From: Candidatus Zixiibacteriota bacterium
Lineage (GTDB): Bacteria > Zixibacteria > MSB-5A5 > GN15 > FEB-12
Direction: 5' to 3'
DNA: 64,000 nt
Assembly: GCA_020348905.1 (NCBI GenBank)
Contig: CP070756.1
Span: 1,554,311 to 1,618,310, forward strand
Part shown: one piece after another, positions 5,054-57,180 of the stretch
How the letters are laid out: each line of letters starts with the position of its first letter
How positions within the stretch are numbered: position 1 is the stretch's first letter
Position numbers and translations under genes: made by a program
The notes under the pieces: model-generated
What the model saw: only the letters and a program-made list of their open reading frames with translations
The model's database searches: none
What the model was told of the DNA's origin: nothing

Positions 5054-5863
5054 CTAGAAGCTGTCGATGTAAGTGATCTTGATCTCGCGCGTGATGGTAT
5101 CGGACTCGCGGCGGTTCAGAAGCAGGTCCTTCAGGTGAGCTTCCAACTCAAGGTTCTCGGTGAACAACCACTTGATACCAATGTTGAGATAACCCCGGCC
5201 CTTACCGCCGAAAACATTCGGATCGCCATTCGGCAGCTCGGAGCGGTCATCGTTGAGGCCGACATCGTACTCCATCAGCCACGCCAGGTTGTACTTGAAG
5301 GTGGCGTCAAAACCGAGAAAGAAATTGATGTCTTTCTCGTCATCGACATCGTGCTCCAGTGAGTAATTCGTCCCAATGTGCCAGCCGGAGGTCCATTCAT
5401 AGAAATAAAAACTGCGGCTGACGACCAGGTAAAAACCGCGCGATTTGAAAGTGTAGCGATCAAACTCATCACTGAAGGCTCCAAAGCCCTGCGAACTGAA
5501 GCCCAGTGTGACGGCAGGGAAGTATTCGAGCTCGTCGATACCGCGAAACTTCACATTGAATTCAATACGAGGGTTCCAGTTGGGGTCGGTGCTGGAAATA
5601 ACGTTTTCGGCACCATAGGATATGCCCAGCGTAAGGCGGTTTGATAAACCGATATCGGTGTTGCCGATCGCACCGCCGCCGGGGTACAAGCGCACGCCGA
5701 TATCAAAGTAGCCGCGTGGAAACGTGCCCGCTGTCGGCACATCGACCAGCCACCGGGGAGGAACATCGTACAGACTGGCCGAGAACTCCTCCTGCGCTGA
5801 AATAGCGCCAGCGGAAGTTAGAAATAAAATAAATAAAGCTGTAAGAATATATTTTTTGCGCAT
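5054..5863 (-). CDS. Putative outer-membrane beta-barrel protein
   Basis: Signal peptide MRKKYILTALFILFLTSAGAISAQ, alternating beta-strand pattern and C-terminal ...YIDSF with a terminal Phe. Start moved to the internal ATG at 5863, which follows AGGAAG. Confidence 0.65.
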   Translation of the reverse strand: MRKKYILTALFILFLTSAGAISAQEEFSASLYDVPPRWLVDVPTAGTFPRGYFDIGVRLYPGGGAIGNTDIGLSNRLTLGISYGAENVISSTDPNWNPRIEFNVKFRGIDELEYFPAVTLGFSSQGFGAFSDEFDRYTFKSRGFYLVVSRSFYFYEWTSGWHIGTNYSLEHDVDDEKDINFFLGFDATFKYNLAWLMEYDVGLNDDRSELPNGDPNVFGGKGRGYLNIGIKWLFTENLELEAHLKDLLLNRRESDTITREIKITYIDSF

Positions 5864-5961
5864 GGTTCTGTCTTCCTGTTTATCAGGTAACACCCGGTTA
5901 TCTCAATTCATGGGAAAAATAGAAGAGGCCAAATAAGCAAGTCAATTTAAAAACAATCGTG

Positions 5962-6816
5962 CTAAAGCAGGCCGGTCATGCGTCGGAAGTGGTCGGAAAA
6001 TTCCCGGGTGATCGGACCGGTGCTGATCGGGTAGCTCTTTCGTCCGACTTTAATCAGGTTCACGCCGACAATCAATTTCAGCGAACTGGATATGAACACT
6101 TCATCAGCTTCAAGCAGAGTGCTGAGCCTGCCGTTTCGCTCGTGAATAGAAATGCCGAATTTCTTCGCCTGCCGCAGCACGAGCTTCCTCGTTACGCCAT
6201 CGAGACAGCCGGATCCAATCGGCGGGGTGTAGATCATTCCTTTTTTGACCCAATAGACGTTGGCCGAGGTTACCTCGGCTACCTGATCGCTCTCGTTGAG
6301 CAGGAGGGCGTCATCGCATCGAGCGGCCCGGGCCTGCTTGAGTGCGGCGGCATGAATAGCATACGAAAGGGTTTTGATGATTCGGAAGACAGATTTCTGG
6401 TCGACCTTGAATTCCGAAACGTGTAGCTTGAACGGTTTTGCCGGTAATTGGTGAGGTGAGGCGCTCAGGATCACCTGCGGTTTGCCGTCGGTGCCGACCC
6501 ATCGGGCGGATTCACCACTGGTTACGGTAAGGCGAAGTTTCTTAACTTTGTCAGGGTGAGTCTTGAGTGTCTGTCTGATCCATGATTTCAGCCTGCCAGC
6601 ATCAGCCGGAATCTTCAGACCGATCACCTTCGCTCCCCTGTAGAGCCGGCGAAGGTGGTCATCGCCAAAAATGACTCTATCATCAACTGCCAGGAATGTT
6701 TCGAAGAGACCCTCGGCATAAAGCAGGGAATTGTCAAAGACGGATATTTTGTCCTGGCCCCTTTTGACAATCCGCCCGTTGATGCTGGTTACGGTCTTCA
6801 GGTTTTTGCTTGCCAT
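5962..6816 (-). CDS. Class IV (fold-type IV) aminotransferase, branched-chain amino acid aminotransferase or ADC-lyase like
   Basis: Motifs LYAEGLFETF, IIKTLSY (catalytic Lys), EVTSANVYWVK, CLDGVTR and ADEVFISSS. Start set at the ATG at 6816 (MASKNL...) rather than the longer ORF-track start. Confidence 0.8.
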   Translation of the reverse strand: MASKNLKTVTSINGRIVKRGQDKISVFDNSLLYAEGLFETFLAVDDRVIFGDDHLRRLYRGAKVIGLKIPADAGRLKSWIRQTLKTHPDKVKKLRLTVTSGESARWVGTDGKPQVILSASPHQLPAKPFKLHVSEFKVDQKSVFRIIKTLSYAIHAAALKQARAARCDDALLLNESDQVAEVTSANVYWVKKGMIYTPPIGSGCLDGVTRKLVLRQAKKFGISIHERNGRLSTLLEADEVFISSSLKLIVGVNLIKVGRKSYPISTGPITREFSDHFRRMTGLL

Positions 6817-7088
6817 AGTGTTTCCGGGGTGCCATCGGGCCGCAACCGGGCCGTTCGACGGCGTATCATTATAACCACAGTGCCGAAGGCTGTCAGCCAG
6901 TTTTTTGTTTGACCTGTTTGGGGGCCTGCTGGTGCCCGCGTTGAAATAACGAACTGACGGACAGACATTTGTGTCTGCTGGCATGGCGGCGGGTCAAAAA
7001 GGCGCAAAAAAGCTGTTGACGGTCCGTCAAAAATAGTTAAATTGTTATATAGCATATAAATAGAGCGGGTCAATATCGCCTCTATTTT

Positions 7089-7116
7089 GGAACTTTATGC
7101 CTCTCCAAGGGTATTA
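7089..7116 (+). promoter_or_regulatory. Candidate ECF-type promoter upstream of the sigma factor gene
   Basis: GGAACTT, then 15 nt, then GTATTA (17 nt from the end of GGAAC to GTATTA). This resembles the AAC...CGT(A) ECF promoter architecture and ends about 32 nt before the ATG at 7148. Confidence 0.3.
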
Positions 7117-7147: not shown

Positions 7148-7750
7148 ATGGTTAAGGAAACGGAAAAGGATATCGACTTTACTCTTATAAGAGCGGTTCA
7201 GAACGGAGACATGGTCGCTTTTAATCAACTGGTCGACAGGTATAAAGACCGGTTGATGAACGTAATTGGCCGGATGCTGTCATCGGCAGAAGAAGCCCAG
7301 GACATTGTTCAGGAGACTTTTGTCAGGGTTTATCAGCACCGGCAATCGTTTAATTTTCAACACTGTTTCTCCACCTGGATATACACCATCGCCCTGAACC
7401 TGGCTCGGAACGAGTTACGAAAGAGAAAGAAATTCAAGTTCTTTGACATCACCGAGATGAAGGGCAGCGAGACCGAGTTTGCGGTTGAGATGAAGCTGCC
7501 CAGCCGGCTTCCTCAGGCCCTGAACGCCGCCATAAAGGAGCTTCCGAAGAAATACCGGGTGGCTTTCCTGCTGCGCGACATCCAGGAGCTTCCTTACGAA
7601 GAGGTGGCGAAGATGCTTGGTGTTCCGCTGGGGACGGTAAAGTCTCGGGTGAACAGAGCAAGAATGATGTTAAGAGAGAAACTGCAGCCCAAATTGGAGG
7701 GTTACGATGCGCTGTCGAAAAGTGCGCTCTTACCTGTCGGCCTACTGTAG
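7148..7750 (+). CDS. ECF-family RNA polymerase sigma-70 factor
   Basis: Region 2 (FNQLVDRYKDRL...AQDIVQETFVRVY, WIYTIALNLARN) and region 4 (YRVAFLLRDIQELPYEEVAKMLGVPLGTVKSRVNRAR). Confidence 0.9.
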   Translation: MVKETEKDIDFTLIRAVQNGDMVAFNQLVDRYKDRLMNVIGRMLSSAEEAQDIVQETFVRVYQHRQSFNFQHCFSTWIYTIALNLARNELRKRKKFKFFDITEMKGSETEFAVEMKLPSRLPQALNAAIKELPKKYRVAFLLRDIQELPYEEVAKMLGVPLGTVKSRVNRARMMLREKLQPKLEGYDALSKSALLPVGLL

Positions 7751-8402
7751 TGACGAACTCGATGGCCGCCACAGGCTGGCGATAAGCGAGCACCTTTCGA
7801 CCTGCTCGACTTGTCGCAAGGAAGCAGCTATATATAGTTCGTTGATGAAGTCGCGTTCGGAAATCGGGGATTTGAAAGTTTCCGATGATTTTAACGCCAA
7901 ACTCCTTAACCGCATCGCCCAGGAGCGTTTTGCGGAAACCCGTACCAGGGCTTATTTGCCCAGGACCGCCCCTAAGATAGTCTGGGGGAAGGCCGTGCCG
8001 GCCCTGGCAGCCGCCTGTCTGGTTCTTTTTGTCTCGGTAGTTGTATTCTCACCCGGTTTCAGGGAAGATACCGGTCTTTCGACATCATCGAGAGGTGAAC
8101 TGGACGATTCCTATCTCACCGTTCAACCGACCAACAACCCCAACCTGACCGTCAAGATGGATCAAGGGTGGTCGCTCAGCGATCACCTGGCCCGGGCCGA
8201 AAGAGTGAGTCAAATCTCCAGCAGCATGACGCAGGTAAACGGTGTGGACTGGCAGCGGTATTCGTCGGGACTCAGACAGGTTTCGGTAGACGCCGGCAGC
8301 CGCATTCCATACGTACCTTACTATTTCAAGATTCGTCCGGTTGTACGCGTTTACGGTTATCCCGCGGCGACGTCTGTTAAGGAGGTCACCGGAGTATATT
8401 AG
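7707..8402 (+). CDS. Anti-sigma factor, zf-HC2 type, single-pass membrane protein
   Basis: N-terminal CRKVRSYLSAYCSDEL...HLSTCSTCRKE (H-x3-C-x2-C), a TM segment AVPALAAACLVLFVSVVVF, GGAGGG SD, and a 44-nt overlap with the sigma gene. Confidence 0.75.
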   Translation: MRCRKVRSYLSAYCSDELDGRHRLAISEHLSTCSTCRKEAAIYSSLMKSRSEIGDLKVSDDFNAKLLNRIAQERFAETRTRAYLPRTAPKIVWGKAVPALAAACLVLFVSVVVFSPGFREDTGLSTSSRGELDDSYLTVQPTNNPNLTVKMDQGWSLSDHLARAERVSQISSSMTQVNGVDWQRYSSGLRQVSVDAGSRIPYVPYYFKIRPVVRVYGYPAATSVKEVTGVY

Positions 8403-8403
8403 A

Positions 8404-9579
8404 ATGTTAACGATCGCTTTTCGAAGGGCCGCCGGAAAGTACGCGTTTTTAGCTTTTTGGGCGGTTCTTTTTTGCTCCCCCATACTGGCTCAGGACAGCT
8501 CGCTCAACATGCTGGAGAGCGGCCTGAACGATCTCATTTACCGTCTTTCGCGTTCGGTTGTTACGGTAGAGAGTTTTTATCCCAGGCCTGCTAGTATCCG
8601 CAGCGGAGCCGGCGGTGACGCCCTGTACAACGTGATTGCGACAGGCGTCATATTTGATTCCTCCGGTCATGTTCTGACGGTGGCCTCTAATGTCGTCAAC
8701 CGCTCCAGAATACAGATTCGATTCGAAGACCAGACCGTTCCCGCCGAGGTGCAGGCGATTGACTACCAGACCGGGTTGGCCGTTTTGAGACTGGCCAGGC
8801 CGGTGGGAACGCCGGCCAGACTGAATCGTCAGCATGGTTGTGCCGGGCAGATGATTCTCGCCCTGGGCAACGCCTACGGACTTCGGGCGGCACCCTCAAT
8901 GGGCTTTTGTGCCGGGGTCAGACCTGATGGCGCGGTGCAGTTTACGGCTCCCATAACCTCGAGCACTCTTGGCGGCGGCCTGTTCGATCTTTCCGGGCAG
9001 CTTGTCGGGCTTATAACGGGAGGTATCGGGCAGGGCAATCGCACAGAAATCGGCCTGGCTGTGCCATCGGCACGAGTATCCGAAAGTGCGGAATATCTTC
9101 TGGCCCGCGGTGACCGTATGGCCGGATACCTTGGTTTGAGCACCGCTGAGATGGAGGTTTATCCTCCGCTCGAGATTGGTCAAAGCAGCCAATTGGTCAA
9201 CGATGGTAGCGGCGGCATGCTGATCGAACGCGCTGTGGTTATAACGGCCGTTGTACCATCCTCGCCTGCGGCGAAGGCCGGGTTGAAGGTTGGAGATCTG
9301 CTCTTCAGCGTCAATCGTCAGGCGGTACCTTCGGCTTTTCAGGTGGCGAATTTTGTCAAGCAGTCGATGCCGGGCACGGTCATCGAGTTGGGCATCATCA
9401 GGCAGAACCGTTCATACTTCGTGCCGGTGAAGGTGGGACAGGCGCAGACGCGGTCCTTCGAGTCTTCAATAAGTGTCTCTTTTGAACGAGTGGAATATTT
9501 TGACCTGACGGATTCGCTGCTTGGAGAAATCGAGGCCCTCAAGGCCACTATCAGGCACCTGGAGCGTCGCATAAGGTAG
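8404..9579 (+). CDS. HtrA/DegS-like trypsin-fold plus PDZ protein; catalytic triad apparently substituted
   Basis: Signal peptide, S1C-like core (ATGVIFDSSGHVLT, GLAVLRL, GLAVPS) and a PDZ domain (VVPSSPAAKAGLKVGDLLFSVNRQAV). The expected TNxHV, D(L/I)A and GNSGG motifs read TVASNV, TGLA and STLGGG. Confidence 0.75.
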   Translation: MLTIAFRRAAGKYAFLAFWAVLFCSPILAQDSSLNMLESGLNDLIYRLSRSVVTVESFYPRPASIRSGAGGDALYNVIATGVIFDSSGHVLTVASNVVNRSRIQIRFEDQTVPAEVQAIDYQTGLAVLRLARPVGTPARLNRQHGCAGQMILALGNAYGLRAAPSMGFCAGVRPDGAVQFTAPITSSTLGGGLFDLSGQLVGLITGGIGQGNRTEIGLAVPSARVSESAEYLLARGDRMAGYLGLSTAEMEVYPPLEIGQSSQLVNDGSGGMLIERAVVITAVVPSSPAAKAGLKVGDLLFSVNRQAVPSAFQVANFVKQSMPGTVIELGIIRQNRSYFVPVKVGQAQTRSFESSISVSFERVEYFDLTDSLLGEIEALKATIRHLERRIR

Positions 9580-9599: not shown

Positions 9600-10304
9600 T
9601 TGCCATTTTCCTCCGCCGACCATTTCTTAAACAACATGAATCTTACAGCCGACCGTGAGAGCTTTCTGGCTCGCCTTGACAGTTTCCGTCCGCAGGGTCA
9701 GGCCGGTGAGCGAGCATTGGCGATGTATTCGGCTGCTATAGCCCTGGCTGATGATCTGGCCATGACCCGGGCGGTTGAAGTTGGACGAAGATTGAGCCTT
9801 ACAGCGAATGTACTCTACGAGGTGGTTTTGCAGTCGTACCTGTTTTTGGGTTTTCCCCGGATGTTGACCGCCGCGGAGAACTTAAGCCGCACTTTTCCTG
9901 TAGAAAGTAATGAGTTTGAACTCAAAGCGATCAGCCCCGCCGAGTCACGGCAGTGGTTCGACCGGGGTCTGGAGCTGTGCCGAAAGGTTTACGCTGACAA
10001 GTACGAGGTCCTCATGAACAGGGTTGCCGCCATGGCGCCGGATGTTTTCCGCTGGATGATAATAGAAGGCTACGGCAAAGTGCTGTCGCGTCCATCGCTG
10101 GATATCATCAGCCGGGAATTGTCGATCATTGCTTTCTTGATGATGGAGAACCGGGTTAAGCAGCTTCATTCGCATATGACCGGCGCCCTGAATGTGGGCG
10201 CCTCACGAGAATTGATTCACTCGGTGGTCGACGACATTGGATCCGCTGCGGGGGACGGCTACGATTCCGCAAGGGATATTTTGGAACAATGGGGAAGAGA
10301 CTGA
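9600..10304 (+). CDS. AhpD-like / carboxymuconolactone decarboxylase family protein
   Basis: C-terminal RELSIIAFLMMENRVKQLHSHMTGALNVGASRELIHSVVDDIGSAAG resembles a CMD domain. The TTG start is uncertain; an alternative ATG lies at 9636. Confidence 0.5.
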   Translation: MPFSSADHFLNNMNLTADRESFLARLDSFRPQGQAGERALAMYSAAIALADDLAMTRAVEVGRRLSLTANVLYEVVLQSYLFLGFPRMLTAAENLSRTFPVESNEFELKAISPAESRQWFDRGLELCRKVYADKYEVLMNRVAAMAPDVFRWMIIEGYGKVLSRPSLDIISRELSIIAFLMMENRVKQLHSHMTGALNVGASRELIHSVVDDIGSAAGDGYDSARDILEQWGRD

Positions 10305-10305
10305 C

Positions 10306-13300
10306 ATGCGTCGCTGGCTTAAGATAATAGCGATTACTATCCTTACCCTGGTACTTCTGATAGGCGGAGCGTATCTGTACCTGTTTCACCTGGGCGGCAT
10401 AGAAACCGTTATCAACGCCAAGATATCCGGTCTTGTCGAACAGCGTTATCGCCTTGACGTCAAAATAGGAAGGGTCAAGGGGAGTTTTCTGTCTGATCTG
10501 GTAGTCGAAAACGTCGTCGTCTACTATGACGACCCTACCCGACGCTACCAGATACTTACCGTGCCCCGGATATCGGCGTCTTACGCACTGGCCAACATCT
10601 GGGAGGAGCGGTTCATTTTCGACTATCTGTTTGTCGACTCGGCCGAGATCGTCATGCTGCAGGATACCACGGGCGAGTGGGTTATTCCTGATTTCACGCC
10701 CAAGCGAGAGCCCGATGATACCGCCGCCACCAGGCTGCCGTCGTTTTCGGTCGGCAACCTGGGTCTGCGCGATCTGAGCATAAGGTTGGTGAAGCCCGAT
10801 GACACGGTGAGTTTCGATGATATTTTTGTGTCGCTGGCTTTTAAGGGCGAAGACAACACTTATTCGGTTGATGTTGAGCAATTTGAGTTTACCTCCAACA
10901 GGCAGAAGCTTCAGTTGAACGCGGCCGGCGGGAAGGTCACGCTCGCCGATAACCGGCTTCTGTTTCAGGATGTTGCTCTTGTTTCCGGGGATGTCCGGAT
11001 GAAATTGAGCGGCAATATAGACCTGGGTGGCCCGCCGGCAGGCATTGTATCGTTTGCCGCCGACAATATGGATCTTGCTGATGTTACGGCTTATGTCGGT
11101 CCGCGTCTGAAGGGGGTCGTTGATGTCAACGGTACGGTTAATTTCACCGGCAGCGCTTTGAGCGGCACCGTCGATATCGGCGGTGACTTCATGATGGCCA
11201 GTCTGCAGAATCTTTTCGTGGATTTTTCGTACGAGAACGGTTTTTTGTACTTCGACACGCTCTACGGCACGATTCTGGAGAACTGCGCCGTCGACGGAGG
11301 TGGTTACGTGGACTTCACCGAACGCCCGGAAACCTATATGTTAGAAGCGGACATCAAGGGTTTCAATCTGAACACTCTCGTGGGCGGCACTTTCGAGTCG
11401 GACCTCAACGGCAATATTATCATGTACGGCGAGTCATTTCGCAATGCTGACCTGGCTTTAGACCTGCACGCCGAATTGTACGAGTCGTCGTTCGATGAGT
11501 ATCCGATTCATCGGGGTTTCGGCGATGTTCTGATTACGACCGACTCGCTCATATTTCTCGATTCGTTTCGCGTCAATTACTACGAGAATCTGTTTTATGC
11601 CTCAGGCAAGATCGACTACGGTGAGGGCATCGACCTGGATATTGCCATCGATCTGCCCAACCTTGACCGATACCGGGGCAAGCTGTTTATCGATCAGCCG
11701 GGGGGCCGCGGCCGGGCGCGGGCAACCCTGACCGGCCAGACATCGGACCCCGATCTCAGAGGATATTTCACATCCGATTCGATATGGATCTACGGTTTGT
11801 ACAGTGATAGCATGTACGCTACGGTCGAGATTGACCGGTTCCTCAGCCGCAAGCTTGGTACGGTTGAGGTCGATTTCTTTGATGGTACCGTTTATGAGAC
11901 TCCTTACGACACCGGGTACGCTCTACTGCGAGTGGATTCCAACCTGGTGTTTTTTGACACGGCGCGCATAGCCAATCCTTTCACCAGCCTGGTCGTAGCC
12001 GGTGACTACGATTACGAAGCGATACCTGGACTGTTAACCGTAGACAGTCTTAGCCTGGATTTGTTCGGGCAAGACTTCTACAACCGTTCAAAAATCGTGG
12101 TCGAGGTGGATTCGCTCGGGTTCCAGTTCACGCAGGCGGCCATCGGTAACAACGGAGCCGGCCTGACGGTGCGGGGCAGGGCCAATTACGATGAAACGAT
12201 GGACATGATGTTATCGGTGTCACACCTGCCGATCGAACCCTGGAAGAATTTGTTTGTGGAAAGCCTTTTGGTGACGGGATACCTGTCGGCGGAGGCATCG
12301 CTAACGGGCTCCTTTGCGGAGCCGCAGTTTATCATCAACGCTTTTCTGGATTCGCTCGAGTACGAAGGTTTGCTCCTGGGTGATATCGCCACGAGCGTGA
12401 CCTACGATAACCGTCTTTTGAATATCGAGAATTTCCAATTGCTGTCCGAGTACGGTGATTACCGGGCCGACGGCTCTTTCTATGTGGACCTGGCGTTCAC
12501 GGCCGACTCGCTGGAGCGATTTCCCGATTTGCCCATGGAGATACGAATCGCCGCGGTCGACAGCCGCTTCGACCTGGTCAGCCTGTTGCAGCCGTCGGTG
12601 GAGGACCTCACAGGCGACTTTTTCGCTGATTTCGTTCTCTCCGGGACGCCGCTCGACCCACACCTTGAGGGTGAGGCCTTCATGATCAACCCGCGACTGA
12701 AGTATTTCGACCTCGAGGAAAGACTGTTCGGTGATTCAATCTCGGTGACCATGGAGAACAATCGGATTATTATCGATACGCTCGAGGCGTACTATGCGAA
12801 AGACACGACCAACCTATCCGAGCGAGTATCGGTGTTTGCGAGGGGTACTATCACGGTGATGTCACTCGATCGGTTCTACTACGATCTTGATGTGCGCGTA
12901 CCGGAGAAGTTTCCTTTCAGGTATGAACTTGATGACATTTCCGGTGAATTCGAAGGAAATTTACGCGTCGAGGGGGACTCGCCGCCGCGGGTTGTCGGCG
13001 ATCTGGAGATGAGCAGCATGCGGTACCTGGTCAATTTTGCCGAGCCGAATGAACTGTCGCCGGTGATCAAAGCGTTTGAGGGGGACAACCTGTGGGATCT
13101 GGAGGTCGACTTCAGCATTCCATCCAACTACTGGATCAAGAATGAAGATATCGATGCCGAGTTCGCCGGCGAGGTGACGATGCTGCGCAACGCCGGGGTG
13201 TATAGCTTTGTCGGTCAGATGGAGGTGCTGCGCGGTCGGGGCTTCCTGTTTGATAAGATCTTCCAACTCGAACCGGGAGGCCTGGTGACCTTTGAAGGAG

Positions 13301-13854
13301 GTGAGACTTTCAACCCGCTGCTGGAAATTGAAGCCAACACTTACATCGCCGGTAGTCGTGGGACGGACGAAGAAGACCGCAATATTGAACAGCTGCGCCT
13401 GGGTATCCTGATAACCGGTACGCTTGAAGAGCCGGAGATAAATGTCACCGAGGATTCCGATGTCGGGTCGCGCGAGGATATCTTGCCGTTGATTGTAGCC
13501 AACCAGTACGCCGGGGAGGGTGGAACCGCCACGACCAGCCTGGAGACGAGAGTAGCCAGCCTGGTATCGACCCAGTTGTCTCAGATCGGTTCGCGTCAGC
13601 TGGGCCGGCTGGGTGTTGAGACTTTCGAACTCGACCCCGGTTACTCCGGCGAGTTTGATCCGCTGGAAACCAGGGTTACACTGGGCCGGTACTGGACGCC
13701 ACACTTTTACACTTATGGCAGATCTTCGCTTTCGGGACAAAGCCGTCAGGAAGTCGGGTTTGAATACCGGTTCAATAAGTCGGTCATTCTGGAGGGACTT
13801 CGTGACGAGGATGAGCTGTACCACCTTAACCTCAAACTCAACTGGGAATTCTAA
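10306..13854 (+). CDS. tamB: Translocation and assembly module protein TamB (AsmA-like, DUF490 C-terminus)
   Basis: 1182 aa with an N-terminal anchor MRRWLKIIAITILTLVLLIGGAYLYLF, a long beta-rich body and a C-terminus ...GRYWTPHFYTYGRS...GFEYRFNKSVILEG...LNLKLNWEF. Start at the ATG at 10306, just after the previous stop. Confidence 0.8.
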   Translation: MRRWLKIIAITILTLVLLIGGAYLYLFHLGGIETVINAKISGLVEQRYRLDVKIGRVKGSFLSDLVVENVVVYYDDPTRRYQILTVPRISASYALANIWEERFIFDYLFVDSAEIVMLQDTTGEWVIPDFTPKREPDDTAATRLPSFSVGNLGLRDLSIRLVKPDDTVSFDDIFVSLAFKGEDNTYSVDVEQFEFTSNRQKLQLNAAGGKVTLADNRLLFQDVALVSGDVRMKLSGNIDLGGPPAGIVSFAADNMDLADVTAYVGPRLKGVVDVNGTVNFTGSALSGTVDIGGDFMMASLQNLFVDFSYENGFLYFDTLYGTILENCAVDGGGYVDFTERPETYMLEADIKGFNLNTLVGGTFESDLNGNIIMYGESFRNADLALDLHAELYESSFDEYPIHRGFGDVLITTDSLIFLDSFRVNYYENLFYASGKIDYGEGIDLDIAIDLPNLDRYRGKLFIDQPGGRGRARATLTGQTSDPDLRGYFTSDSIWIYGLYSDSMYATVEIDRFLSRKLGTVEVDFFDGTVYETPYDTGYALLRVDSNLVFFDTARIANPFTSLVVAGDYDYEAIPGLLTVDSLSLDLFGQDFYNRSKIVVEVDSLGFQFTQAAIGNNGAGLTVRGRANYDETMDMMLSVSHLPIEPWKNLFVESLLVTGYLSAEASLTGSFAEPQFIINAFLDSLEYEGLLLGDIATSVTYDNRLLNIENFQLLSEYGDYRADGSFYVDLAFTADSLERFPDLPMEIRIAAVDSRFDLVSLLQPSVEDLTGDFFADFVLSGTPLDPHLEGEAFMINPRLKYFDLEERLFGDSISVTMENNRIIIDTLEAYYAKDTTNLSERVSVFARGTITVMSLDRFYYDLDVRVPEKFPFRYELDDISGEFEGNLRVEGDSPPRVVGDLEMSSMRYLVNFAEPNELSPVIKAFEGDNLWDLEVDFSIPSNYWIKNEDIDAEFAGEVTMLRNAGVYSFVGQMEVLRGRGFLFDKIFQLEPGGLVTFEGGETFNPLLEIEANTYIAGSRGTDEEDRNIEQLRLGILITGTLEEPEINVTEDSDVGSREDILPLIVANQYAGEGGTATTSLETRVASLVSTQLSQIGSRQLGRLGVETFELDPGYSGEFDPLETRVTLGRYWTPHFYTYGRSSLSGQSRQEVGFEYRFNKSVILEGLRDEDELYHLNLKLNWEF

Positions 13855-15771
13855 GTGCTGAGAAAGACGCTGCTGCTTTTTGCCTTTTCATCGCTTTTAT
13901 CCGTGGCCTGGGGCCAGACCATCGACCGGGGCACCCTGCGCTGGATGCGTGACCGACCCATCATTGATTCGATTGTCATTGAAGGCAACCAGGCTATTTC
14001 GGATTCGCGGATTCGCTCGCGGATGTACTCCAAGGTGCGGACATTCTTCGATATGCTCAAAGGGGAGAGGCGGAGCCGGCTGCAGCGCGAAACCTACGAC
14101 CGCGATACCCTCGAGATAAAGTACCTGTATCTGACCAACGGCTACCTGGGTGTAAGGGTCAGTGAGTCGTTCGAGGTTCTTCCGGTGGATTCTACCGCCC
14201 TGATAAAAATCGCCATCGACGAAGGCCGGCAGTATTTTTACGGCGACAAGGCGGTTGAGGGAGATTTTCATCCGGGCTTTGCGATACGTTTTGAAAAGAT
14301 TTATCGAAGACTGAAGACGGGCCAGCCGGTGAACCCATTGGCTCTGAGACAAGTCGCTTTCGATATGAAAACGTCACTTGCCAACAACGGCTACCCTTAT
14401 GCCAGTGTTACTTTCGAATTCGACACGGTTATATCGCCTCCTGTTACACCCATCGCTTTCACCGTTGTTACTGATTCGGTGGTGCATTTCGGCGACGTTT
14501 TGATTCAAGGGACCGCGAATTATCCCGAGTTTGTCGCCCGCCGGGAACTGAAGATCAAGCCGGGTGACCTTTACCGGCGGCAGGCTATCGTTGATTCCCA
14601 GAGGCGGCTGTTCGAGTCCGGGTACTTCAGTTACCTCCAGCTGGAGAGGATGGAGACCAACGGTGACCGCCTGAATCCCGATTTCCGTCTCAAGGTCCGC
14701 GAGAGACGTCCTAAATTCATTTCGGTCAAGACCGGTGCCGGTCAGTCGGAACTGAAAGACCTGATTTGGGATTTTTCGTTTGGTGCCGGCAAGCGCAATT
14801 TCATCGGCTCGCGGAGGGTGAGCCTCACTTCCGACTACTCATTTTCACTCGGTGAGGAGTCCCGGCTAATCACCCATCGCTATCGGCTCCGATATACCGA
14901 GCCATGGTTTTTGGGTTTCAGGATGCCGCTTACGCTGACCGGCGAGTATGAGCCGCCGATTAAATCAACACTTCAAGATTTTACTATAACATCTTGGGGT
15001 GTATCAGCATCTACTATTAAATGGTTTGGCGACAAGGTCAAGACCACCACCGGCGTGGAGTACAACGAGGTCAAGATATCGGATGTTCCTCCCGAGCTGG
15101 AGCAGGAGTTGAAGGAGGCGGAGGGAATATCGGCCCGGCGCAAGATTTACACCGTCTACCGGCGCGACAGCCGCGACAATATCTTCATACCGAGACGCGG
15201 CTCGCTCAGCGACATGTCGGTCGAGTTTTTCGGAGGGTTCTTAGGAGGCGACGACGACTTCTACAAGATCGAGGCGAGTTGGGGGCGGTATCAGACAGTC
15301 TGGCCGGGGTGGATTTCGGCCACGCGGCTGAAGGGGGGGTACGTTACCGAATTCGGCGATTCCGAGGTCGTTCCCAAAGATGAGCTTCTGTATCTGGGCG
15401 GTGCCAACACCATAAGGGGTTTCAAAGAGAATACGCTCGGACCGCTTCGTGAGGATGGCTCGGCTGAAGGTGCCCGGATTACCCTGATTTTCAACCAGGA
15501 GTTCCGGTGGAAGACGATTCAGGTTTTGAAGGCGATTCCCTGGCGCGTTTTTGAAGAATTGCCACTGTGGCAATCGGTCTTCCTTGATGTTGGTAACGGT
15601 TTTCGTAATGATACAGAGATAGCGATTGACAACCTGGCTGTCAGCTATGGCACCGGTTTTCAGATTGTCTCACCGGCCGGACCGATACGTATCGACTATG
15701 CCCGGCGCGTCAAGACGGAGAAATATGACTTTGACAGCCGATGGCACTTCACTATATTATATGCCTTTTGA
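13855..15771 (+). CDS. tamA: Omp85-family outer-membrane protein with POTRA repeats, TamA-like
   Basis: Signal peptide, POTRA-like repeats (IDSIVIEGNQAISDSRI, GDVLIQGTANYPE) and a C-terminal barrel with GGANTIRGF and terminal ...FTILYAF. The GTG start abuts the tamB stop. Confidence 0.75.
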   Translation: MLRKTLLLFAFSSLLSVAWGQTIDRGTLRWMRDRPIIDSIVIEGNQAISDSRIRSRMYSKVRTFFDMLKGERRSRLQRETYDRDTLEIKYLYLTNGYLGVRVSESFEVLPVDSTALIKIAIDEGRQYFYGDKAVEGDFHPGFAIRFEKIYRRLKTGQPVNPLALRQVAFDMKTSLANNGYPYASVTFEFDTVISPPVTPIAFTVVTDSVVHFGDVLIQGTANYPEFVARRELKIKPGDLYRRQAIVDSQRRLFESGYFSYLQLERMETNGDRLNPDFRLKVRERRPKFISVKTGAGQSELKDLIWDFSFGAGKRNFIGSRRVSLTSDYSFSLGEESRLITHRYRLRYTEPWFLGFRMPLTLTGEYEPPIKSTLQDFTITSWGVSASTIKWFGDKVKTTTGVEYNEVKISDVPPELEQELKEAEGISARRKIYTVYRRDSRDNIFIPRRGSLSDMSVEFFGGFLGGDDDFYKIEASWGRYQTVWPGWISATRLKGGYVTEFGDSEVVPKDELLYLGGANTIRGFKENTLGPLREDGSAEGARITLIFNQEFRWKTIQVLKAIPWRVFEELPLWQSVFLDVGNGFRNDTEIAIDNLAVSYGTGFQIVSPAGPIRIDYARRVKTEKYDFDSRWHFTILYAF

Positions 15772-22003: not shown

Positions 22004-24835
22004 ATGAAGAAGTTTTTGAAGATTCTGGGCTGGGTGGCCGGTGCTGTCATCGTCCTGTTGATACTCGCGATCGCTGGTTTATGGTTGTTCTTTCCGATTG
22101 AGAAGGCTAAAGAGATGGCGGTGGAGCGCGGCAGCGCCCAGCTGGGACGAACGATAACAGTCGAAGATGCGGCCATTTCGTTCTGGGGCGGTCTGGGGGT
22201 CAGACTTGGCAATGTGGCGGTAGGCAATCCTGCTGCCATGGAAGACGGCGATTTCCTTAAGGCCGAAGATGTCGATGTCAAGCTGCAGATTCTGCCGCTG
22301 CTTTCAGGAAACTACAAAATCGACCGGCTGGTTATTAACCGTCCCGAGATAGCTATGCTCAAGCGTGCCGATGGCACCAACAACTACACGTTCGAGGCCG
22401 TCGAAAAAAAAGCACCGCCCGAGCTGGCTGAGAAAGTTGCGCCCGAGGCCAAGGCAGCGGCTTTTGCCGTAACCTTTGACGAGCTTGTAATCAATGACGG
22501 CATGCTAAGTTTTGTCGACGATAGTTCCGGCATGAGTTTCCGCCTTAACAATCTTGACCTGTCTACTTCATTAACAAGCCCGCGCGCGAATTACTATCGT
22601 TCATCGGGAAGTATAGAAGTCGATTCGGTGGCGGTGTCGCTGGATGTTCCACTTCCACCGCTATCGGTGAAGCTCGATTACAATCTCGACTACGACCCTG
22701 CTACCAGGCAAATTACGTTCGAAGAAACCCGGCTGGAACTCAACCGGGTAAAATTCGCTCTTAAGGGGGAAGCGCATGATCCAACCGGGCAGCTAAAGAG
22801 CAAGGTGTCGATTAAATCCGAGAAGATCTCGGTGGCTGATTTATTCGCTCTGCTTCCGCCGGAGAAACTGGAAGCCACCCGGGATTTCGAGATAGACGGC
22901 GACTTTACGCTGGACCTTGATGTTGAGTATGACCCCGACCATCCAGATACCCTTACCTATTACGGCACGGCGCTGATAACCTCGATGAATCTCTCTCACC
23001 GGGAGGTGCCGGGCCAATTCGAGTTCAGCCGCGCCCTGCTGGACTTCAAGACCGATAACCTGAGATTCAATATCGAGGATGCCTACTTCGACGGAAATCC
23101 CGTCAAGGGGCACCTGGTCGTGGACAACTTCGATGATCCCACCGCGAACGGCGAACTGGCCGGCAAGTTCAACCTGGCCTATCTGCAGCCGTTCCTCCCG
23201 GCCGAGGGTCAGCACACCATTGCCGGCGGCAGCGAATTCGACATAAAGCTCTCCGGTAAGCCGAGAGACTTCGGCTCCATGAGTTTCTCCGGCAGCCTCA
23301 AGGTATCCGGCGGCAGCTATAACTCGGCGGCCCTTTTCGAGCCGGTCGAATCTTTTGATCTCGACGTTTATTTCGACAACCGCCTCACCCATGTCAGGAA
23401 GCTCACCGGGCGAATGAAGTCGGGCGACCTGTCTTTCGAGGGTCGCTTTAACGATCTGGTTCCGTACTTCATGGCGGATTCGGTCACCCGTCGCATGATC
23501 GCACCCACCATTGACGGTTCGGTGTCAGGGAATGTCGATCTGGCGGTGGTAAACATGTTTTTGCCGCCTACGGGAAATCCCGAGCTCAAGGGTGACCTGA
23601 GCACAAACATAAAGATGACAGGGGTATTGACCGACTACGAACGGCTTCGGCCGAGCGGAAAGCTGACTATTCGGAACGCCTCTTATACCGATTCGCTGTT
23701 ACCGGAGCCGGTGACCCATTTCGAGGCGGAGATGACTATCGCGCCGGATACCATCACGGTCAATAACCTTACGGCGAAGTTCGTATCAAGTGATGCCTCA
23801 TTCTCGGGCAAGCTGGTCGACCCCTTTCCGTACCTTCTGCCGATCGAAGGAGTGGACCGCAGCCAGGTCAACAAGCCGTTATTTCTGTTCCAGCTGTCCT
23901 CGAACCGGTTCGATGCGGATAAACTGTTTCCGGAGGCCGTGCCCGGCTCCGGGGAAAATCGTGCTACCGTGTCGGTGGACTCGATCTCGCCCTTCATCCT
24001 GCCTGACATAGACGGACAGGGGACGTTTGAGGTGGACACCCTTATCTACAGCCAGGTTGAGTTTACATCGCTTCAGGGGAAGATAAAGGTTTACGATCGC
24101 AAGATCGAATGCTACGACGCTACCGGGAAGGTGTACACCGGTGACGTTTCGGGCAAGACCACGATTGACCTGCAGGATTTCGAGAACCCCCGGTACGTTG
24201 GCGAGTTCAAGGCCAGCAATGTCGAAGCGGACGACTTTGTCAGCCGGTTCACGAAATTCGGCGGCTACCTGTTCGGCAAGGTCAATATGGAGGGCAATTA
24301 CAATGCCAGCGGCTGGGAGGCGCAGGATTTTTTGAATTCGCTGACCATGAACTCGGCGTCGTCGATGCAGCAGGGGAAGGTAGTTACGTCGGGCGTCGTT
24401 TTCTCCGCCATAAGCAGCCTGGCATCGAAGGCCGGCGAGACTTTTGAGAAGGAACAGTCCCTGCGCGATCTGAGTACAAACGTGGTTGTCAAGGATGGCA
24501 AAGTATCAGTTGACAAACTCCAGACCGGGTTGGGTAAGGTGGGTGACGTTCAGCTGGACGGTTTCTACGCTTTTACGGGAGACATAAGTTACAGCGGCAC
24601 TATCCTGTTGTCGAAAGAGTGGTCCGAGAAGCTTGTTTCGCAGAAGGGATTGCTGGGTAACCTGGCCGGTTTGTTGTCGGATAAGAGTGTCGATCGCATC
24701 AAGTTGCCGATTGCCTTCGGCGGTACGATCGATCAACCGTCGTTTGATGTCGACTATACAGCGCTGGCGAAGAACCTGGGCGAGAACCTCAAGGATGAAG
24801 CCGGGAATCTGCTGGACAAGTTGAAGAAAAAATAG
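22004..24835 (+). CDS. AsmA-family outer-membrane biogenesis protein
   Basis: 943 aa with an N-terminal anchor KILGWVAGAVIVLLILAIAGLWLFF, then a ...TVEDAAISFWGGLGVRLGNVAVGNP start typical of AsmA, and a long repetitive beta-rich body. Confidence 0.8.
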   Translation: MKKFLKILGWVAGAVIVLLILAIAGLWLFFPIEKAKEMAVERGSAQLGRTITVEDAAISFWGGLGVRLGNVAVGNPAAMEDGDFLKAEDVDVKLQILPLLSGNYKIDRLVINRPEIAMLKRADGTNNYTFEAVEKKAPPELAEKVAPEAKAAAFAVTFDELVINDGMLSFVDDSSGMSFRLNNLDLSTSLTSPRANYYRSSGSIEVDSVAVSLDVPLPPLSVKLDYNLDYDPATRQITFEETRLELNRVKFALKGEAHDPTGQLKSKVSIKSEKISVADLFALLPPEKLEATRDFEIDGDFTLDLDVEYDPDHPDTLTYYGTALITSMNLSHREVPGQFEFSRALLDFKTDNLRFNIEDAYFDGNPVKGHLVVDNFDDPTANGELAGKFNLAYLQPFLPAEGQHTIAGGSEFDIKLSGKPRDFGSMSFSGSLKVSGGSYNSAALFEPVESFDLDVYFDNRLTHVRKLTGRMKSGDLSFEGRFNDLVPYFMADSVTRRMIAPTIDGSVSGNVDLAVVNMFLPPTGNPELKGDLSTNIKMTGVLTDYERLRPSGKLTIRNASYTDSLLPEPVTHFEAEMTIAPDTITVNNLTAKFVSSDASFSGKLVDPFPYLLPIEGVDRSQVNKPLFLFQLSSNRFDADKLFPEAVPGSGENRATVSVDSISPFILPDIDGQGTFEVDTLIYSQVEFTSLQGKIKVYDRKIECYDATGKVYTGDVSGKTTIDLQDFENPRYVGEFKASNVEADDFVSRFTKFGGYLFGKVNMEGNYNASGWEAQDFLNSLTMNSASSMQQGKVVTSGVVFSAISSLASKAGETFEKEQSLRDLSTNVVVKDGKVSVDKLQTGLGKVGDVQLDGFYAFTGDISYSGTILLSKEWSEKLVSQKGLLGNLAGLLSDKSVDRIKLPIAFGGTIDQPSFDVDYTALAKNLGENLKDEAGNLLDKLKKK

Positions 24836-55928: not shown

Positions 55929-56077
55929 TTTCCCCAAAATAAATTCCTTGTCAGGCAACAGCTTAAGGCCTGATTTTGGCCGATTTTCTTTCAAGATTCG
56001 CGGTTATCTTCCGATAATAATGGAAAACAGCGATTCTGTATAGATTCGAGAACAATATAGCGATCTGGAGATAATCC

Positions 56078-57151: not shown

Positions 57152-57180
57152 CCGAAGCTGTGATAAGAAAGGATTAAGCA

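What the first reader, a model, noticed from the sequence alone, without database searches (positions are those of the whole stretch)
7148..9579. ECF sigma / anti-sigma operon followed by an HtrA/DegS-like PDZ protein with all three catalytic residues apparently replaced
Seen: the sigma and zf-HC2 anti-sigma genes overlap, and the next gene starts 2 nt after the anti-sigma stop. Its product has a signal peptide, a trypsin-fold core collinear with DegP/DegS, and a PDZ domain. At the positions I align by eye to the triad motifs it reads TVASNV (expected TNxHV), TGLAVL (expected D(I/L)A) and STLGGGL (expected GNSGGAL). Known: in E. coli, DegS (PDZ protease) performs site-1 cleavage of the anti-sigma RseA to release sigma-E. 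Inference: a catalytically dead DegS-like protein could act as a periplasmic sensor, decoy or co-anti-sigma in this ECF pathway.
Basis: partly seen in the sequence, partly recalled or inferred. Interest (0 to 1): 0.55.

Follow-up and report, generated by a model that had tools for sequence, protein, structure and literature searches.

The report
Dead HtrA partner of anti-sigma factor
In Zixibacteria, a stress-response switch (a sigma factor and its membrane-bound inhibitor) is always followed by a protease look-alike that has lost its cutting residues; it most likely guards or senses through the inhibitor rather than cutting it, although public databases label it an active serine protease.

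Summary
Window 7148-9579 encodes an ECF sigma, an overlapping zf-HC2 anti-sigma and, 1 nt after its stop codon, a 391-aa HtrA/DegS-fold protein with one PDZ domain. At the His/Asp/Ser columns it reads Ser95(or Asn96)/Gly124/Leu189.

The loss is a family trait. Among 120 orthologues none has His and 103 have V/I/L at the Ser column. The same procedure returns H-D-S in 81 of 83 canonical HtrAs. dN/dS of 0.03-0.24 shows purifying selection.

The organism is a Zixibacterium. In 59 species-level genomes the order sigma, anti-sigma, dead HtrA, CMD-like, TamB, Omp85 is conserved, behind a sigma-E-like promoter (GGAACTT-N-GTAyTA).

Related His-less HtrA-like proteins follow sigma/anti-sigma pairs in other Zixibacteria and in KSB1, where the downstream genes differ. 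The three-gene module is therefore the conserved unit.

New here: the anti-sigma ends in Tyr in 57 of 58 orthologues, and in Tyr or Phe in 8 of 8 related modules. The PDZ carboxylate-binding loop is intact.

Best reading: a periplasmic pseudoprotease that works as co-anti-sigma or sensor, holding the anti-sigma tail until outer-membrane-protein C-termini compete. This mechanism is inferred, not shown. It is a new variant of a known kind.

The parts
7089..7116 (+). ECF-type, sigma-E-like promoter: -35 GGAACTT (7089-7095), -10 GTATTA (7111-7116), ending about 31 nt before the sigma ATG
   Evidence: GGAAC-N16-18-GTA is present at the same place in 48 of 51 orthologous upstream regions. The strict pattern gives a single hit in the 64-kb window. 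A single hit is not significant on its own: 23 of 100 shuffles give at least one. The support comes from conservation across loci.
7148..7750 (+). ECF sigma factor, 200 aa, regions 2 and 4 only. Its last 14 codons overlap the anti-sigma gene.
   Evidence: Pfam Sigma70_r2 and Sigma70_r4_2. Closest solved relatives are SigW 4e-31, AlgU and RpoE about 1e-28. Mean identity across 52 orthologues is 81%. dN/dS is 0.004-0.11.
7707..8402 (+). Class I (zf-HC2) single-pass anti-sigma, 231 aa. Zn-finger at 7713-7817 (H29, C33, C36). Transmembrane segment about 7992-8048. Periplasmic part 8061-8399. C-terminal Tyr231 codon 8397-8399.
   Evidence: Pfam zf-HC2 5e-9. A profile of 48 orthologues hits RsiW at 1.3e-3. 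The overlap with sigma is 44 or 47 nt in 52 of 52 loci. The terminal residue is Tyr in 57 of 58, encoded by TAC 39 times and TAT 18 times.
8404..9579 (+). HtrA-fold pseudoprotease with one PDZ domain, 391 aa. Signal peptide or anchor 8404-8490. Trypsin-like domain 8638-9012. PDZ 9181-9429. Flexible linker, then an amphipathic C-terminal helix 9505-9573.
   Evidence: for domains and fold. for orthologues and synteny. for purifying selection.
8686..8691 (+). Codons of Ser95 and Asn96, which occupy the catalytic His position
   Evidence: Ser95 by the DegS pairwise alignment, MAFFT and hmmalign. Asn96 by the DegQ pairwise alignment. No orthologue has His here, 0 of 120.
8773..8775 (+). Codon of Gly124, at the catalytic Asp position
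   Evidence: The family has Gly in 86 of 120 and Asp in 18 of 120.
8968..8970 (+). Codon of Leu189, at the catalytic Ser position, inside a retained glycine-rich L1 loop (G190-G192)
   Evidence: The family has V/I/L in 103 of 120 and Ser in 3 of 120. G190 is invariant and G191/G192 are conserved in at least 90%.
9124..9138 (+). PDZ carboxylate-binding loop G241-Y-L-G-L245, preceded by invariant R238
   Evidence: It aligns to the GYIGI loop of DegS. R238 is conserved in at least 90%; G241 and G244 are invariant in 70 sequences.
9600..10304 (+). CMD-family (carboxymuconolactone decarboxylase-like) protein with no CxxC motif. It is the fourth gene of the cluster; function unknown.
   Evidence: Pfam CMD 1.3e-8. 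Present after the pseudoprotease in 52 of the 59 loci; absent where expected in L011 and L048, the other five contigs end first.
10306..13854 (+). TamB/AsmA-like protein. The likely ATG start lies 1 nt after the CMD stop.
   Evidence: Pfam TamB 1.4e-36. Synteny. The CMD-to-TamB gap is -4 or -1 nt in 35 of 47 loci.
13855..15771 (+). Omp85/POTRA outer-membrane protein (TamA/BamA-like). It starts immediately after the TamB stop.
   Evidence: Pfam Omp85 1.4e-47 and POTRA 3e-22. It follows TamB in 36 of 41 loci.

Best explanation
The third gene encodes a periplasmic HtrA/DegS-fold protein that can no longer hydrolyse peptide bonds. It has been kept as a binding subunit of a sigma-E/SigW-type envelope-stress switch.

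Shown:
- The trypsin fold and one PDZ domain are present, and His, Asp and Ser are all replaced.
- The replacement holds across the family, which is under purifying selection.
- Production is translationally coupled to the anti-sigma.
- The PDZ carboxylate-binding loop and the glycine-rich L1 loop are retained.
- The anti-sigma's periplasmic C-terminus ends in a near-invariant Tyr.
- The operon carries an autoregulatory ECF promoter and continues into TamB and Omp85.

Inferred:
- The pseudoprotease binds the periplasmic part of the anti-sigma. The most likely contact is the C-terminal Tyr in the PDZ groove. The conserved RPVV(R/K)xY strand may also lie in the dead cleft.
- This binding shields the anti-sigma from a separate site-1 protease, as RseB and MucB do for RseA and MucA.
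- Unassembled outer-membrane proteins end in an aromatic residue, as the three encoded nearby do. When they accumulate they compete for the PDZ.
- The anti-sigma is then exposed and degraded by regulated intramembrane proteolysis, and sigma is released.
- Sigma transcribes its own operon, including the TAM outer-membrane assembly genes.

One dead enzyme would thus combine DegS's sensor role with RseB's guard role.
For: Dead triad:
- Searches place the triad columns. The His column holds His in 0 of 120 orthologues, and the Ser column holds V/I/L in 103 of 120.
- As a control, the same procedure gives H-D-S in 81 of 83 canonical HtrAs, including a Zixibacterial DegQ, P0426.
- No His column reaches 90% conservation in 70 sequences.

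Not a decaying gene:
- dN/dS is 0.03-0.24.
- The ORF is intact in 59 species.

Tie to the anti-sigma:
- The gap between the two genes is -4 to +3 nt in 51 of 54 loci.
- The trio sigma/anti-sigma/HtrA-like recurs with different neighbours. The E-type follows a FadL-like gene. The D-type in KSB1 follows holA.

PDZ ligand idea:
- In the PDZ loop, G241 and G244 are invariant and R238 is conserved in at least 90%.
- The anti-sigma's last residue is Tyr in 57 of 58, with zero entropy against 2.3-3.8 bits at positions -1 to -4.
- Both Tyr codons are used.
- In 8 of 8 E-type and D-type modules the anti-sigma ends in Tyr or Phe. In these modules the intergenic gap is 27-113 nt, so a translational-coupling signal cannot explain the conservation.
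- Nearby outer-membrane proteins end in Phe.

Pathway type:
- The sigma is closest to SigW, AlgU and RpoE, all of which are controlled by proteolysis of a single-pass anti-sigma.
- The conserved promoter has a GGAACTT -35 element.
Against: - No interaction was tested. The tools do not return model coordinates or allow complex prediction.
- In a divergent sister lineage (group B), 4 of 8 anti-sigmas end in ...YLIIPE or ...YLIAP and have no terminal aromatic residue. The tail is therefore dispensable in at least some lineages.
- The terminal Tyr codon in the main family lies 5-6 nt before the next gene's ATG. A nucleotide-level constraint cannot be fully excluded there.
- No site-1 or site-2 protease was identified; none lies in the window.
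- Active HtrAs also sit in sigma operons as regulon members (mucD; Mycobacterium tuberculosis htrA). Linkage alone does not prove a regulatory role.
Confidence: 0.5

Rival explanations
1. The protein is a regulon member, not a regulator. It would be a protease-dead HtrA acting as a periplasmic holdase or chaperone for outer-membrane proteins, co-expressed with TamB and Omp85 under the sigma. Proteolytically inactive DegP keeps chaperone activity in the same way.
For: It lies in one operon with TamB and Omp85 in nearly all main-family loci. The PDZ and the L1 loop are retained. Active HtrAs such as mucD and Mycobacterium tuberculosis htrA are encoded in sigma operons without being anti-sigma partners.
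Against: In the E-type and D-type modules the HtrA-like gene stays with sigma and anti-sigma, while TamB and Omp85 are absent from 8 of the 9 places looked at. The 1-nt coupling is to the anti-sigma gene. The conserved aromatic C-terminus of the anti-sigma has no explanation under this view.
Confidence: 0.22
2. The protein is an adaptor or activator for an active protease. It would bind the anti-sigma and present it to, or form mixed oligomers with, a catalytically active HtrA or another site-1 protease. This makes it a positive regulator, as the pseudoprotease MamO promotes MamE proteolysis.
For: There is a precedent for an HtrA pseudoprotease needed for the activity of an active paralogue (PMC4794232). 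Active HtrAs exist in Zixibacteria, for example P0426 with H-D-S. The same linkage evidence applies as for the best explanation.
Against: No active HtrA is encoded in the operon or the window. Hetero-oligomerisation could not be tested here.
Confidence: 0.15
3. The protein is still an enzyme that uses non-canonical residues, for example the invariant Cys146 and Cys169 or His89.
For: C146 and C169 are invariant in 70 sequences. His89 is frequent, in 89 of 120. The related E-type proteins keep the Ser and show a very uniform S-N-S at the triad columns, in 113 of 120.
Against: No His or Lys column reaches 90% conservation in the family. His89 aligns to a strand residue six positions before the catalytic His and is replaced by R, Y, L or F in 31 of 120. 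The nucleophile position holds an aliphatic residue. The Cys pair is absent in the orthologous group B.
Confidence: 0.05
4. The terminal Tyr of the anti-sigma is a recognition signal for a different PDZ protease, not for the pseudoprotease. Candidates are a tail-specific Prc/Ctp protease, RseP, or an active DegS-like enzyme. The dead HtrA would then bind elsewhere or compete as a decoy.
For: Tail-specific and site-2 proteases read C-terminal residues (established knowledge). Prc acts on MucA (bioRxiv 10.1101/2024.05.28.596254).
Against: The only PDZ protein genetically locked to these anti-sigmas in three module types is the HtrA-like one.
Confidence: 0.08

Closest known systems
E. coli rpoE-rseA-rseB-rseC with DegS (sigma-E envelope stress pathway)
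   Same: An RpoE/SigW-like ECF sigma with a GGAACTT -35 element. A single-pass anti-sigma encoded next to sigma. A periplasmic protein as the third gene. An HtrA-fold protein with a single PDZ and a DegS-like GY(I/L)G(I/L) loop. A link to outer-membrane-protein biogenesis.
   Different: DegS is an active protease encoded elsewhere in the genome, and it cuts RseA. Here the HtrA-fold protein has no triad and occupies the operon position of RseB. There is no homology to RseB (no Pfam hit). The anti-sigma's cytoplasmic domain is of the zf-HC2 type, not RseA_N.
Pseudomonas aeruginosa algU-mucA-mucB-mucC-mucD, and AlgW
   Same: An HtrA-family gene (mucD) lies in the sigma/anti-sigma operon. The model matches the MucD and AlgW structures.
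   Different: MucD and AlgW are catalytically active. MucD is the fifth gene and has two PDZ domains. MucB, not an HtrA, is the co-anti-sigma.
Mycobacterium tuberculosis sigE / rseA-htrA-tatB
   Same: The same gene order: ECF sigma, zf-HC2-type anti-sigma, HtrA (PMC10027907).
   Different: The mycobacterial HtrA is an essential active protease. The reason for its linkage is itself unexplained. The organism is monoderm-like and has no TamB or Omp85.
MamO and other HtrA-family pseudoproteases of magnetotactic bacteria
   Same: A bacterial trypsin-2/HtrA fold with a degenerate triad, kept for a non-catalytic role (PMC4794232).
   Different: MamO binds metal through a di-His motif and promotes MamE proteolysis in magnetosomes. 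Here there is no conserved His, there is a PDZ and a C-terminal coiled-coil-like helix, and the partner is an anti-sigma factor.
Protease-dead DegP (S210A) as chaperone
   Same: An HtrA scaffold working without proteolysis (established knowledge).
   Different: That is an engineered mutant of a two-PDZ cage-forming enzyme. Here the loss is natural, ancient, and involves all three residues.

Membership tests
HtrA / MEROPS S1C serine proteases | Chymotrypsin-fold protease domain followed by at least one PDZ domain | tested here: met
   Pfam Trypsin_2 and PDZ_6. PDB phmmer 1e-19 to 4e-25. AF2 model plus Foldseek to DegS, DegQ and DegP at about 1e-22.
HtrA / MEROPS S1C serine proteases | Catalytic triad His-Asp-Ser (TNxHV, D(I/L)A, GNSGG) | tested here: not met
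   The window protein has Ser95 (or Asn96), Gly124 and Leu189. No orthologue of 120 has His. The control set gives H-D-S in 81 of 83.
HtrA / MEROPS S1C serine proteases | Score above the curated NCBIfam cut-offs for DegP/HtrA/Do, DegS or DegQ | tested here: not met
   116 bits against a cut-off of 416 (Do family). 95 against 423 (DegS). 79 against 756 (DegQ).
DegS-type site-1 protease of a sigma-E pathway | Single PDZ with a peptide-binding carboxylate loop, and an N-terminal membrane or secretion segment | tested here: met
   There is one PDZ. GYLGL aligns to the GYIGI loop of DegS. G241 and G244 are invariant and R238 is conserved in at least 90%. The N-terminal hydrophobic segment was read from the sequence; no predictor was run.
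DegS-type site-1 protease of a sigma-E pathway | Cleaves the periplasmic domain of the anti-sigma | not testable with these tools
   This needs biochemistry. It is implausible without a nucleophile or a general base.
ECF sigma / class I (zf-HC2, ASDI) anti-sigma pair | Sigma with regions 2 and 4 only. Adjacent anti-sigma with an N-terminal HxxxCxxC motif and one transmembrane segment. | tested here: met
   Pfam. H29, C33 and C36 are conserved in at least 90%. The overlap of 44 or 47 nt holds in 52 of 52 loci. The transmembrane segment (residues 96-114) was read from the sequence.
ECF sigma / class I (zf-HC2, ASDI) anti-sigma pair | Autoregulatory ECF-type promoter (AAC-containing -35 element, short -10 element) | tested here: met
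   GGAAC-N16-18-GTA lies 28-37 nt before the sigma ATG in 48 of 51 loci. Promoter activity was not tested.
Named ECF group (ECF Hub / Casas-Pastor 2021 classification) | Score against the group-specific HMMs | not tested
   The group HMMs are not available here. The nearest characterised sigmas are SigW, AlgU and RpoE, all below equivalog cut-offs. The main text of the classification paper does not mention trypsin, HtrA or PDZ contexts.
RseB/MucB co-anti-sigma proteins | Homology to the MucB_RseB family | tested here: not met
   No such Pfam or NCBIfam hit. The resemblance lies only in operon position, periplasmic location and proposed role.
RseB/MucB co-anti-sigma proteins | Binds the anti-sigma periplasmic domain and blocks site-1 cleavage | not testable with these tools
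   Inferred from the coupling and the conserved C-terminal Tyr.
MamO-type HtrA pseudoproteases | Degenerate triad together with a surface di-His metal site | tested here: not met
   The triad is degenerate, so that part is met. No His column reaches 90% conservation, so the metal-site feature is absent.

The most novel reading that the evidence does not exclude
The anti-sigma carries a built-in mimic of the outer-membrane-protein C-terminal signal: a terminal aromatic residue held by the PDZ of a dead DegS-like protein. Free outer-membrane-protein C-termini displace it. Sensing would then work by competitive un-guarding rather than by allosteric activation of a protease. One pseudoenzyme would merge the DegS sensor and the RseB guard. 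This would be the ancestral envelope-stress circuit controlling TAM/Omp85 in Zixibacteria, KSB1 and perhaps further FCB-related phyla.
Probability: 0.3. Interest if true: 0.8.

Novelty: new variant of a known kind. Interest (0 to 1): 0.62.

Why it matters
How envelope stress reaches an ECF sigma is understood in detail only for a few Proteobacteria and Firmicutes. In those cases an active protease makes the first cut.

Here a whole phylum, and at least one more, keeps a protease-derived protein that cannot cut, locked to the anti-sigma gene. This gives a natural case of a signalling protease converted into a binding regulator. It also yields a concrete, testable hypothesis (the PDZ binds the anti-sigma's C-terminal Tyr in competition with outer-membrane-protein tails). 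It links an ECF sigma directly to the TamB/Omp85 assembly genes.

There is a practical point as well. Of the 28 orthologues that carry a source name, 27 are named as a serine protease (S1-C/S1C subfamily or family, 'serine protease', 'serine protease Do'). For this family that name is functionally wrong.

Tried and rejected
Rejected readings:
- His89 of SSGHVL as a relocated catalytic His. It aligns to the Tyr of GYxLT and is not conserved.
- A decaying pseudogene. dN/dS is 0.03-0.24 and the ORF is intact in 59 species.
- A terminal Tyr conserved only because of the adjacent start codon. Both Tyr codons and all three stop codons are used. The aromatic end also persists in E-type and D-type modules with intergenic gaps of 27-113 nt. 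Within the main family this cannot be fully excluded.
- P0053, a 600-aa anti-sigma/HtrA-like fusion, as 'Rosetta stone' evidence. It has lost the anti-sigma tail, and an internal signal sequence would give the wrong topology. It is probably a variant or an artefact.

Searches that led nowhere:
- The ECF classification paper has no mention of trypsin, HtrA or PDZ in its text, and no supplements are held.
- Literature searches for a dead HtrA next to an anti-sigma, or for Zixibacterial sigma factors, found nothing relevant.
- A profile of the anti-sigma against PDB matched only the cytoplasmic zf-HC2 part, to RsiW and ChrR.
- The strict promoter pattern gave no second site in the window.

- The first related-loci run with the 70-sequence alignment failed because it had no conserved stretch. 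A 16-sequence alignment worked.
- No complex prediction was attempted.
Full report
**1. What is in the window**

Three genes lie head to tail on the + strand.
- An ECF sigma factor is at 7148-7750.
- A zf-HC2 anti-sigma factor is at 7707-8402. It overlaps sigma by 44 nt in another frame.
- A 391-aa protein starts with ATG at 8404, one base after the anti-sigma TAG, and ends at 9579.

Pfam assigns the following:
- Sigma70_r2 and Sigma70_r4_2 to the first protein.
- zf-HC2 (H29-x3-C33-x2-C36) to the second.
- Trypsin_2 (residues 79-203, full profile length, E 6e-12) and PDZ_6 (residues 279-333, E 6e-11) to the third.

The third protein matches solved DegQ, DegS and DegP chains at 1e-19 to 4e-25. 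An AlphaFold2 model built on 70 orthologues (pLDDT 82, pTM 0.71) matches DegQ, DegS, DegP, AlgW and MucD structures at about 1e-22.

**2. The catalytic triad is gone**

Four alignments place the triad columns: phmmer pairwise to DegQ and to DegS, MAFFT with 120 orthologues and two active references, and hmmalign.
- All four put the catalytic Asp on Gly124 and the catalytic Ser on Leu189.
- The His falls on Ser95 in three of them. It falls on the adjacent Asn96 in the DegQ pairwise alignment, where a one-residue gap is placed differently.
It is His in only 89 of 120 orthologues.
- In a 70-sequence alignment no His or Lys column reaches 90% conservation.

The glycine-rich L1 loop is retained: G190 is invariant and G191/G192 are near-invariant. 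So is the PDZ carboxylate-binding loop (R238, G241-Y-L-G244), which aligns to the GYIGI loop of DegS.

The scaffold and its peptide-binding elements are therefore kept, and the chemistry is not.

**3. The loss is a family trait under selection**

The protein is 100% identical to a protein annotated 'serine protease' from a Candidatus Zixiibacteriota MAG on a 3.27-Mb contig.

Among 120 orthologues (39-92% identity):
- The His column is never His (Ser 56, Pro 19, Gln 12, and others).
- The Ser column is V/I/L in 103 and Ser in 3.
- The Asp column is Gly in 86 and Asp in 18.

As a control, the same hmmalign procedure gives H-D-S in 81 of 83 canonical HtrAs returned by another search. These include a Zixibacterial DegQ-family protein, P0426.

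dN/dS for the gene is 0.03-0.24 in pairs where dS is not saturated. This is comparable to the anti-sigma and CMD genes. The gene is not a decaying pseudogene.

**4. Genomic context**

A pattern scan of one genome per species returned 59 loci. Most are labelled Zixibacteria or carry no specific name; 18 are filed under Ignavibacteriales, 1 under Calditrichota and 2 under Deferrimicrobium/Acidoferrum.

Wherever the contig reaches far enough, sigma, anti-sigma and the pseudoprotease occur in that order; CMD-like follows in 52 and TamB in 54 of the 59 loci. An Omp85/POTRA gene follows TamB in 36 of 41 loci.

Spacing is rigid:
- Sigma and anti-sigma overlap by 44 or 47 nt in 52 of 52 loci.
- The anti-sigma-to-pseudoprotease gap is -4 to +3 nt in 51 of 54 loci.
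- The CMD-to-TamB gap is -4 or -1 nt in 35 of 47 loci.

Sigma is far more conserved (81% mean identity) than the anti-sigma (47%) or the pseudoprotease (44%).

A conserved GGAACTT-N14-GGTAyTA motif lies about 31 nt upstream of sigma. GGAAC-N16-18-GTA is present in 48 of 51 loci (window 7089-7116). This is an ECF, sigma-E-like promoter and implies autoregulation.

The closest characterised sigmas are SigW, AlgU and RpoE. All three are released by regulated proteolysis of a single-pass anti-sigma.

**5. The trio is the conserved unit**

A full HMMER scan of 1.8 billion representatives with the family profile showed about 48 representatives of the main family. Beyond these lie further 380-470-aa HtrA-like proteins. 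In the groups followed up (B, D and E) the His is missing, and the sampled members end in a heptad-patterned helix.

- Group B comes from metagenome contigs. It sits in the same sigma/anti-sigma/pseudoprotease/CMD/TamB operon and is a divergent orthologous lineage.
- Group E is from Zixibacteria and is about 430 aa. It reads S-N-S at the triad columns in 113 of 120 members. It follows its own ECF sigma (52-55% identical to the window's) and zf-HC2 anti-sigma. A FadL-like gene lies upstream in four of the five contigs, and in one case TamB lies downstream.
- Group D is from candidate division KSB1. It follows holA, an ECF sigma and an anti-sigma, with unrelated genes downstream.

The downstream genes change, but sigma, anti-sigma and the His-less HtrA-like protein stay together. 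The HtrA-like protein is therefore tied to the sigma/anti-sigma pair rather than to TamB and Omp85. This favours a regulatory partner over a TAM-specific chaperone.

**6. A new clue: the anti-sigma's C-terminus**

The periplasmic part of the anti-sigma is poorly conserved apart from three motifs:
- a YLTVQP..NPN motif,
- a WSL..QLAR.ER.NRIS helix,
- an RPVV(R/K)xY strand.

The very last residue, however, is Tyr in 57 of 58 orthologues. Its entropy is zero, against 2.3-3.8 bits at positions -1 to -4. It is encoded by TAC 39 times and TAT 18 times, before TAA, TGA or TAG.

The conserved Lys-Glu at positions -6 and -5 is explained instead by an AAGGAGG Shine-Dalgarno-like sequence for the next gene.

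In all eight E-type and D-type modules examined the anti-sigma also ends in Tyr or Phe. In those modules the intergenic gap is 27-113 nt. This argues for selection on the amino acid and not on a coupling signal.

The outer-membrane proteins encoded nearby end in Phe: Omp85 ...ILYAF, TamB ...LNWEF, and the 279-aa outer-membrane protein ...YIDSF.

The PDZ domain of DegS is known to read the aromatic C-termini of unassembled outer-membrane proteins. This is established knowledge of the E. coli sigma-E pathway. The dead protein's intact PDZ loop and the anti-sigma's aromatic end make a PDZ-tail contact the most economical hypothesis.

One counter-observation stands. Four of eight group-B anti-sigmas stop right after the RPV(I/V)K(D/N)YLI(I/A)P motif and have no aromatic end.

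**7. Most likely mechanism (inferred)**

- The pseudoprotease is exported. Its N-terminus is a signal peptide or an anchor.
- It is made in step with the anti-sigma and binds its periplasmic part.
- It shields the anti-sigma from an unidentified site-1 protease, as RseB and MucB do.
- Accumulating outer-membrane-protein C-termini compete for the PDZ. The anti-sigma is then degraded.
- Sigma is released and drives its own operon, including TamB and Omp85.

Confidence that the protein is catalytically dead is about 0.9. Confidence in the regulatory-partner model as a whole is about 0.5.

Rivals, with approximate confidence:
- an outer-membrane-protein holdase that is merely a regulon member (0.22);
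- a MamO-like adaptor or activator for an active protease (0.15);
- the terminal Tyr read by another PDZ protease (0.08);
- a non-canonical enzyme (0.05).

**8. Comparison with known systems**

- The system works like the rpoE-rseA-rseB/DegS and algU-mucABCD circuits.
- It shares gene order with Mycobacterium tuberculosis sigE/rseA-htrA-tatB.
- It is not a member of the active S1C proteases, because the triad test fails and the curated cut-offs are missed by a factor of about four or more.
- It is not homologous to RseB or MucB.
- It lacks MamO's conserved di-His site.

No paper describing a triad-less HtrA partnered with an anti-sigma was found. I rate it a new variant of a known kind.

**9. 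Limits**

- There are no coordinates, no complex prediction and no whole-genome access.
- The ECF group was not assigned.
- Whether the E-type module is a paralogue in the same genomes or the counterpart in another lineage is unresolved.
- The role of the invariant Cys146/Cys169 pair, of the C-terminal helix (residues 368-390, heptad pattern L372/I376/L379/I383/L386/I390) and of the CMD-like protein is unknown.

Noticed in passing
window 7707-7750; L001-L059: The out-of-frame overlap between sigma and anti-sigma (44 nt, or 47 nt in 8 loci) holds in 52 of 52 loci. Sigma's C-terminal tail DALSKSALLPVGLL and the anti-sigma's MRCRKVRSYLSAYC are both conserved. This is a dual-coding stretch.
   Followed up: partly
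window 9600-15771: The operon continues with three more genes: a CMD-family protein with no CxxC motif (function unknown), TamB, and an Omp85/POTRA protein. All have gaps of 0-1 nt or overlaps. Omp85 follows TamB in 36 of 41 related loci.
   Followed up: partly
L060-L062, L147, L148 (proteins P0208, P0262-P0378): A second module type in Zixibacteria: ECF sigma, zf-HC2 anti-sigma ending in Tyr, then a roughly 430-aa HtrA-like protein. That protein reads S-N-S at the triad columns with striking uniformity (113 of 120), which may indicate a different constraint or chemistry. In L147 a TamB gene follows it, and in L061 an OMP279 homologue lies upstream. Whether it is a paralogue or a positional counterpart is unresolved.
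   Followed up: partly
L143-L146 (proteins P0381-P0413): Candidate division KSB1 carries holA, an ECF sigma, an anti-sigma ending in Phe or Tyr, and a His-less HtrA-like protein with a C-terminal heptad helix. Its promoters have a GGAACTTTT -35 element and a GGTT(A/C)AA-like -10 element.
   Followed up: partly
P0053 (600 aa, JGI contig of 13.4 kb): An in-frame fusion of the anti-sigma, minus its C-terminal tail, to the pseudoprotease. The signal sequence becomes internal. This is probably a deletion variant or an assembly artefact.
   Followed up: no
L013:5905-5925, also L015, L025, L036: Four related MAGs have CCG where all the others have the ATG of the pseudoprotease (...TAC TAA A CCG CTA AC...). 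No canonical start codon occurs before the hydrophobic segment. How the gene is translated there is unclear.
   Followed up: partly
window 8839-8841 and 8908-8910 (Cys146, Cys169): Two cysteines are invariant in 70 main-family sequences and absent in the orthologous group B. They may form a disulfide or a redox or metal site in the periplasm. The secondary-structure register in the model puts them about two residues out of direct pairing.
   Followed up: no
window 8379-8385: AAGGAGG lies within the anti-sigma's conserved Lys-Glu codons. It sits 18 nt before the pseudoprotease ATG, an unusually long spacer. A weaker purine patch (GGAG or AAGG) lies about 9 nt before the ATG.
   Followed up: no
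window 9505-9573 (residues 368-390): A C-terminal amphipathic helix with a 3-4 heptad pattern and conserved D-S-L ... L-K ... L-E. It is joined by a low-confidence linker (pLDDT 35-38). A similar helix closes the sampled members of groups B, D and E and is absent from canonical HtrAs. It may be a trimeric coiled coil or a docking helix.
   Followed up: partly
window 5054-5893 (-) and 5962-6984 (-): A 279-aa putative outer-membrane protein (weak YjbH hit, ends ...YIDSF) and a class IV aminotransferase lie divergently upstream. Both are syntenic in most loci.
   Followed up: partly
window 22004-24835, 60233-62011, 54228-58380: Other envelope genes in the window: a second AsmA/YhdP-like protein of 943 aa, a SurA/PpiC-type double-rotamase protein, and type IV pilus PilB/PilT/PilC-like genes with a PilS-like kinase. 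No RseP, Prc or active HtrA was found among the 30 further ORFs scanned.
   Followed up: no
P0001-P0120 source names: Public records name these proteins 'serine protease', 'S1C family serine protease' or 'serine protease Do'. For this triad-less family the name is misleading.
   Followed up: yes
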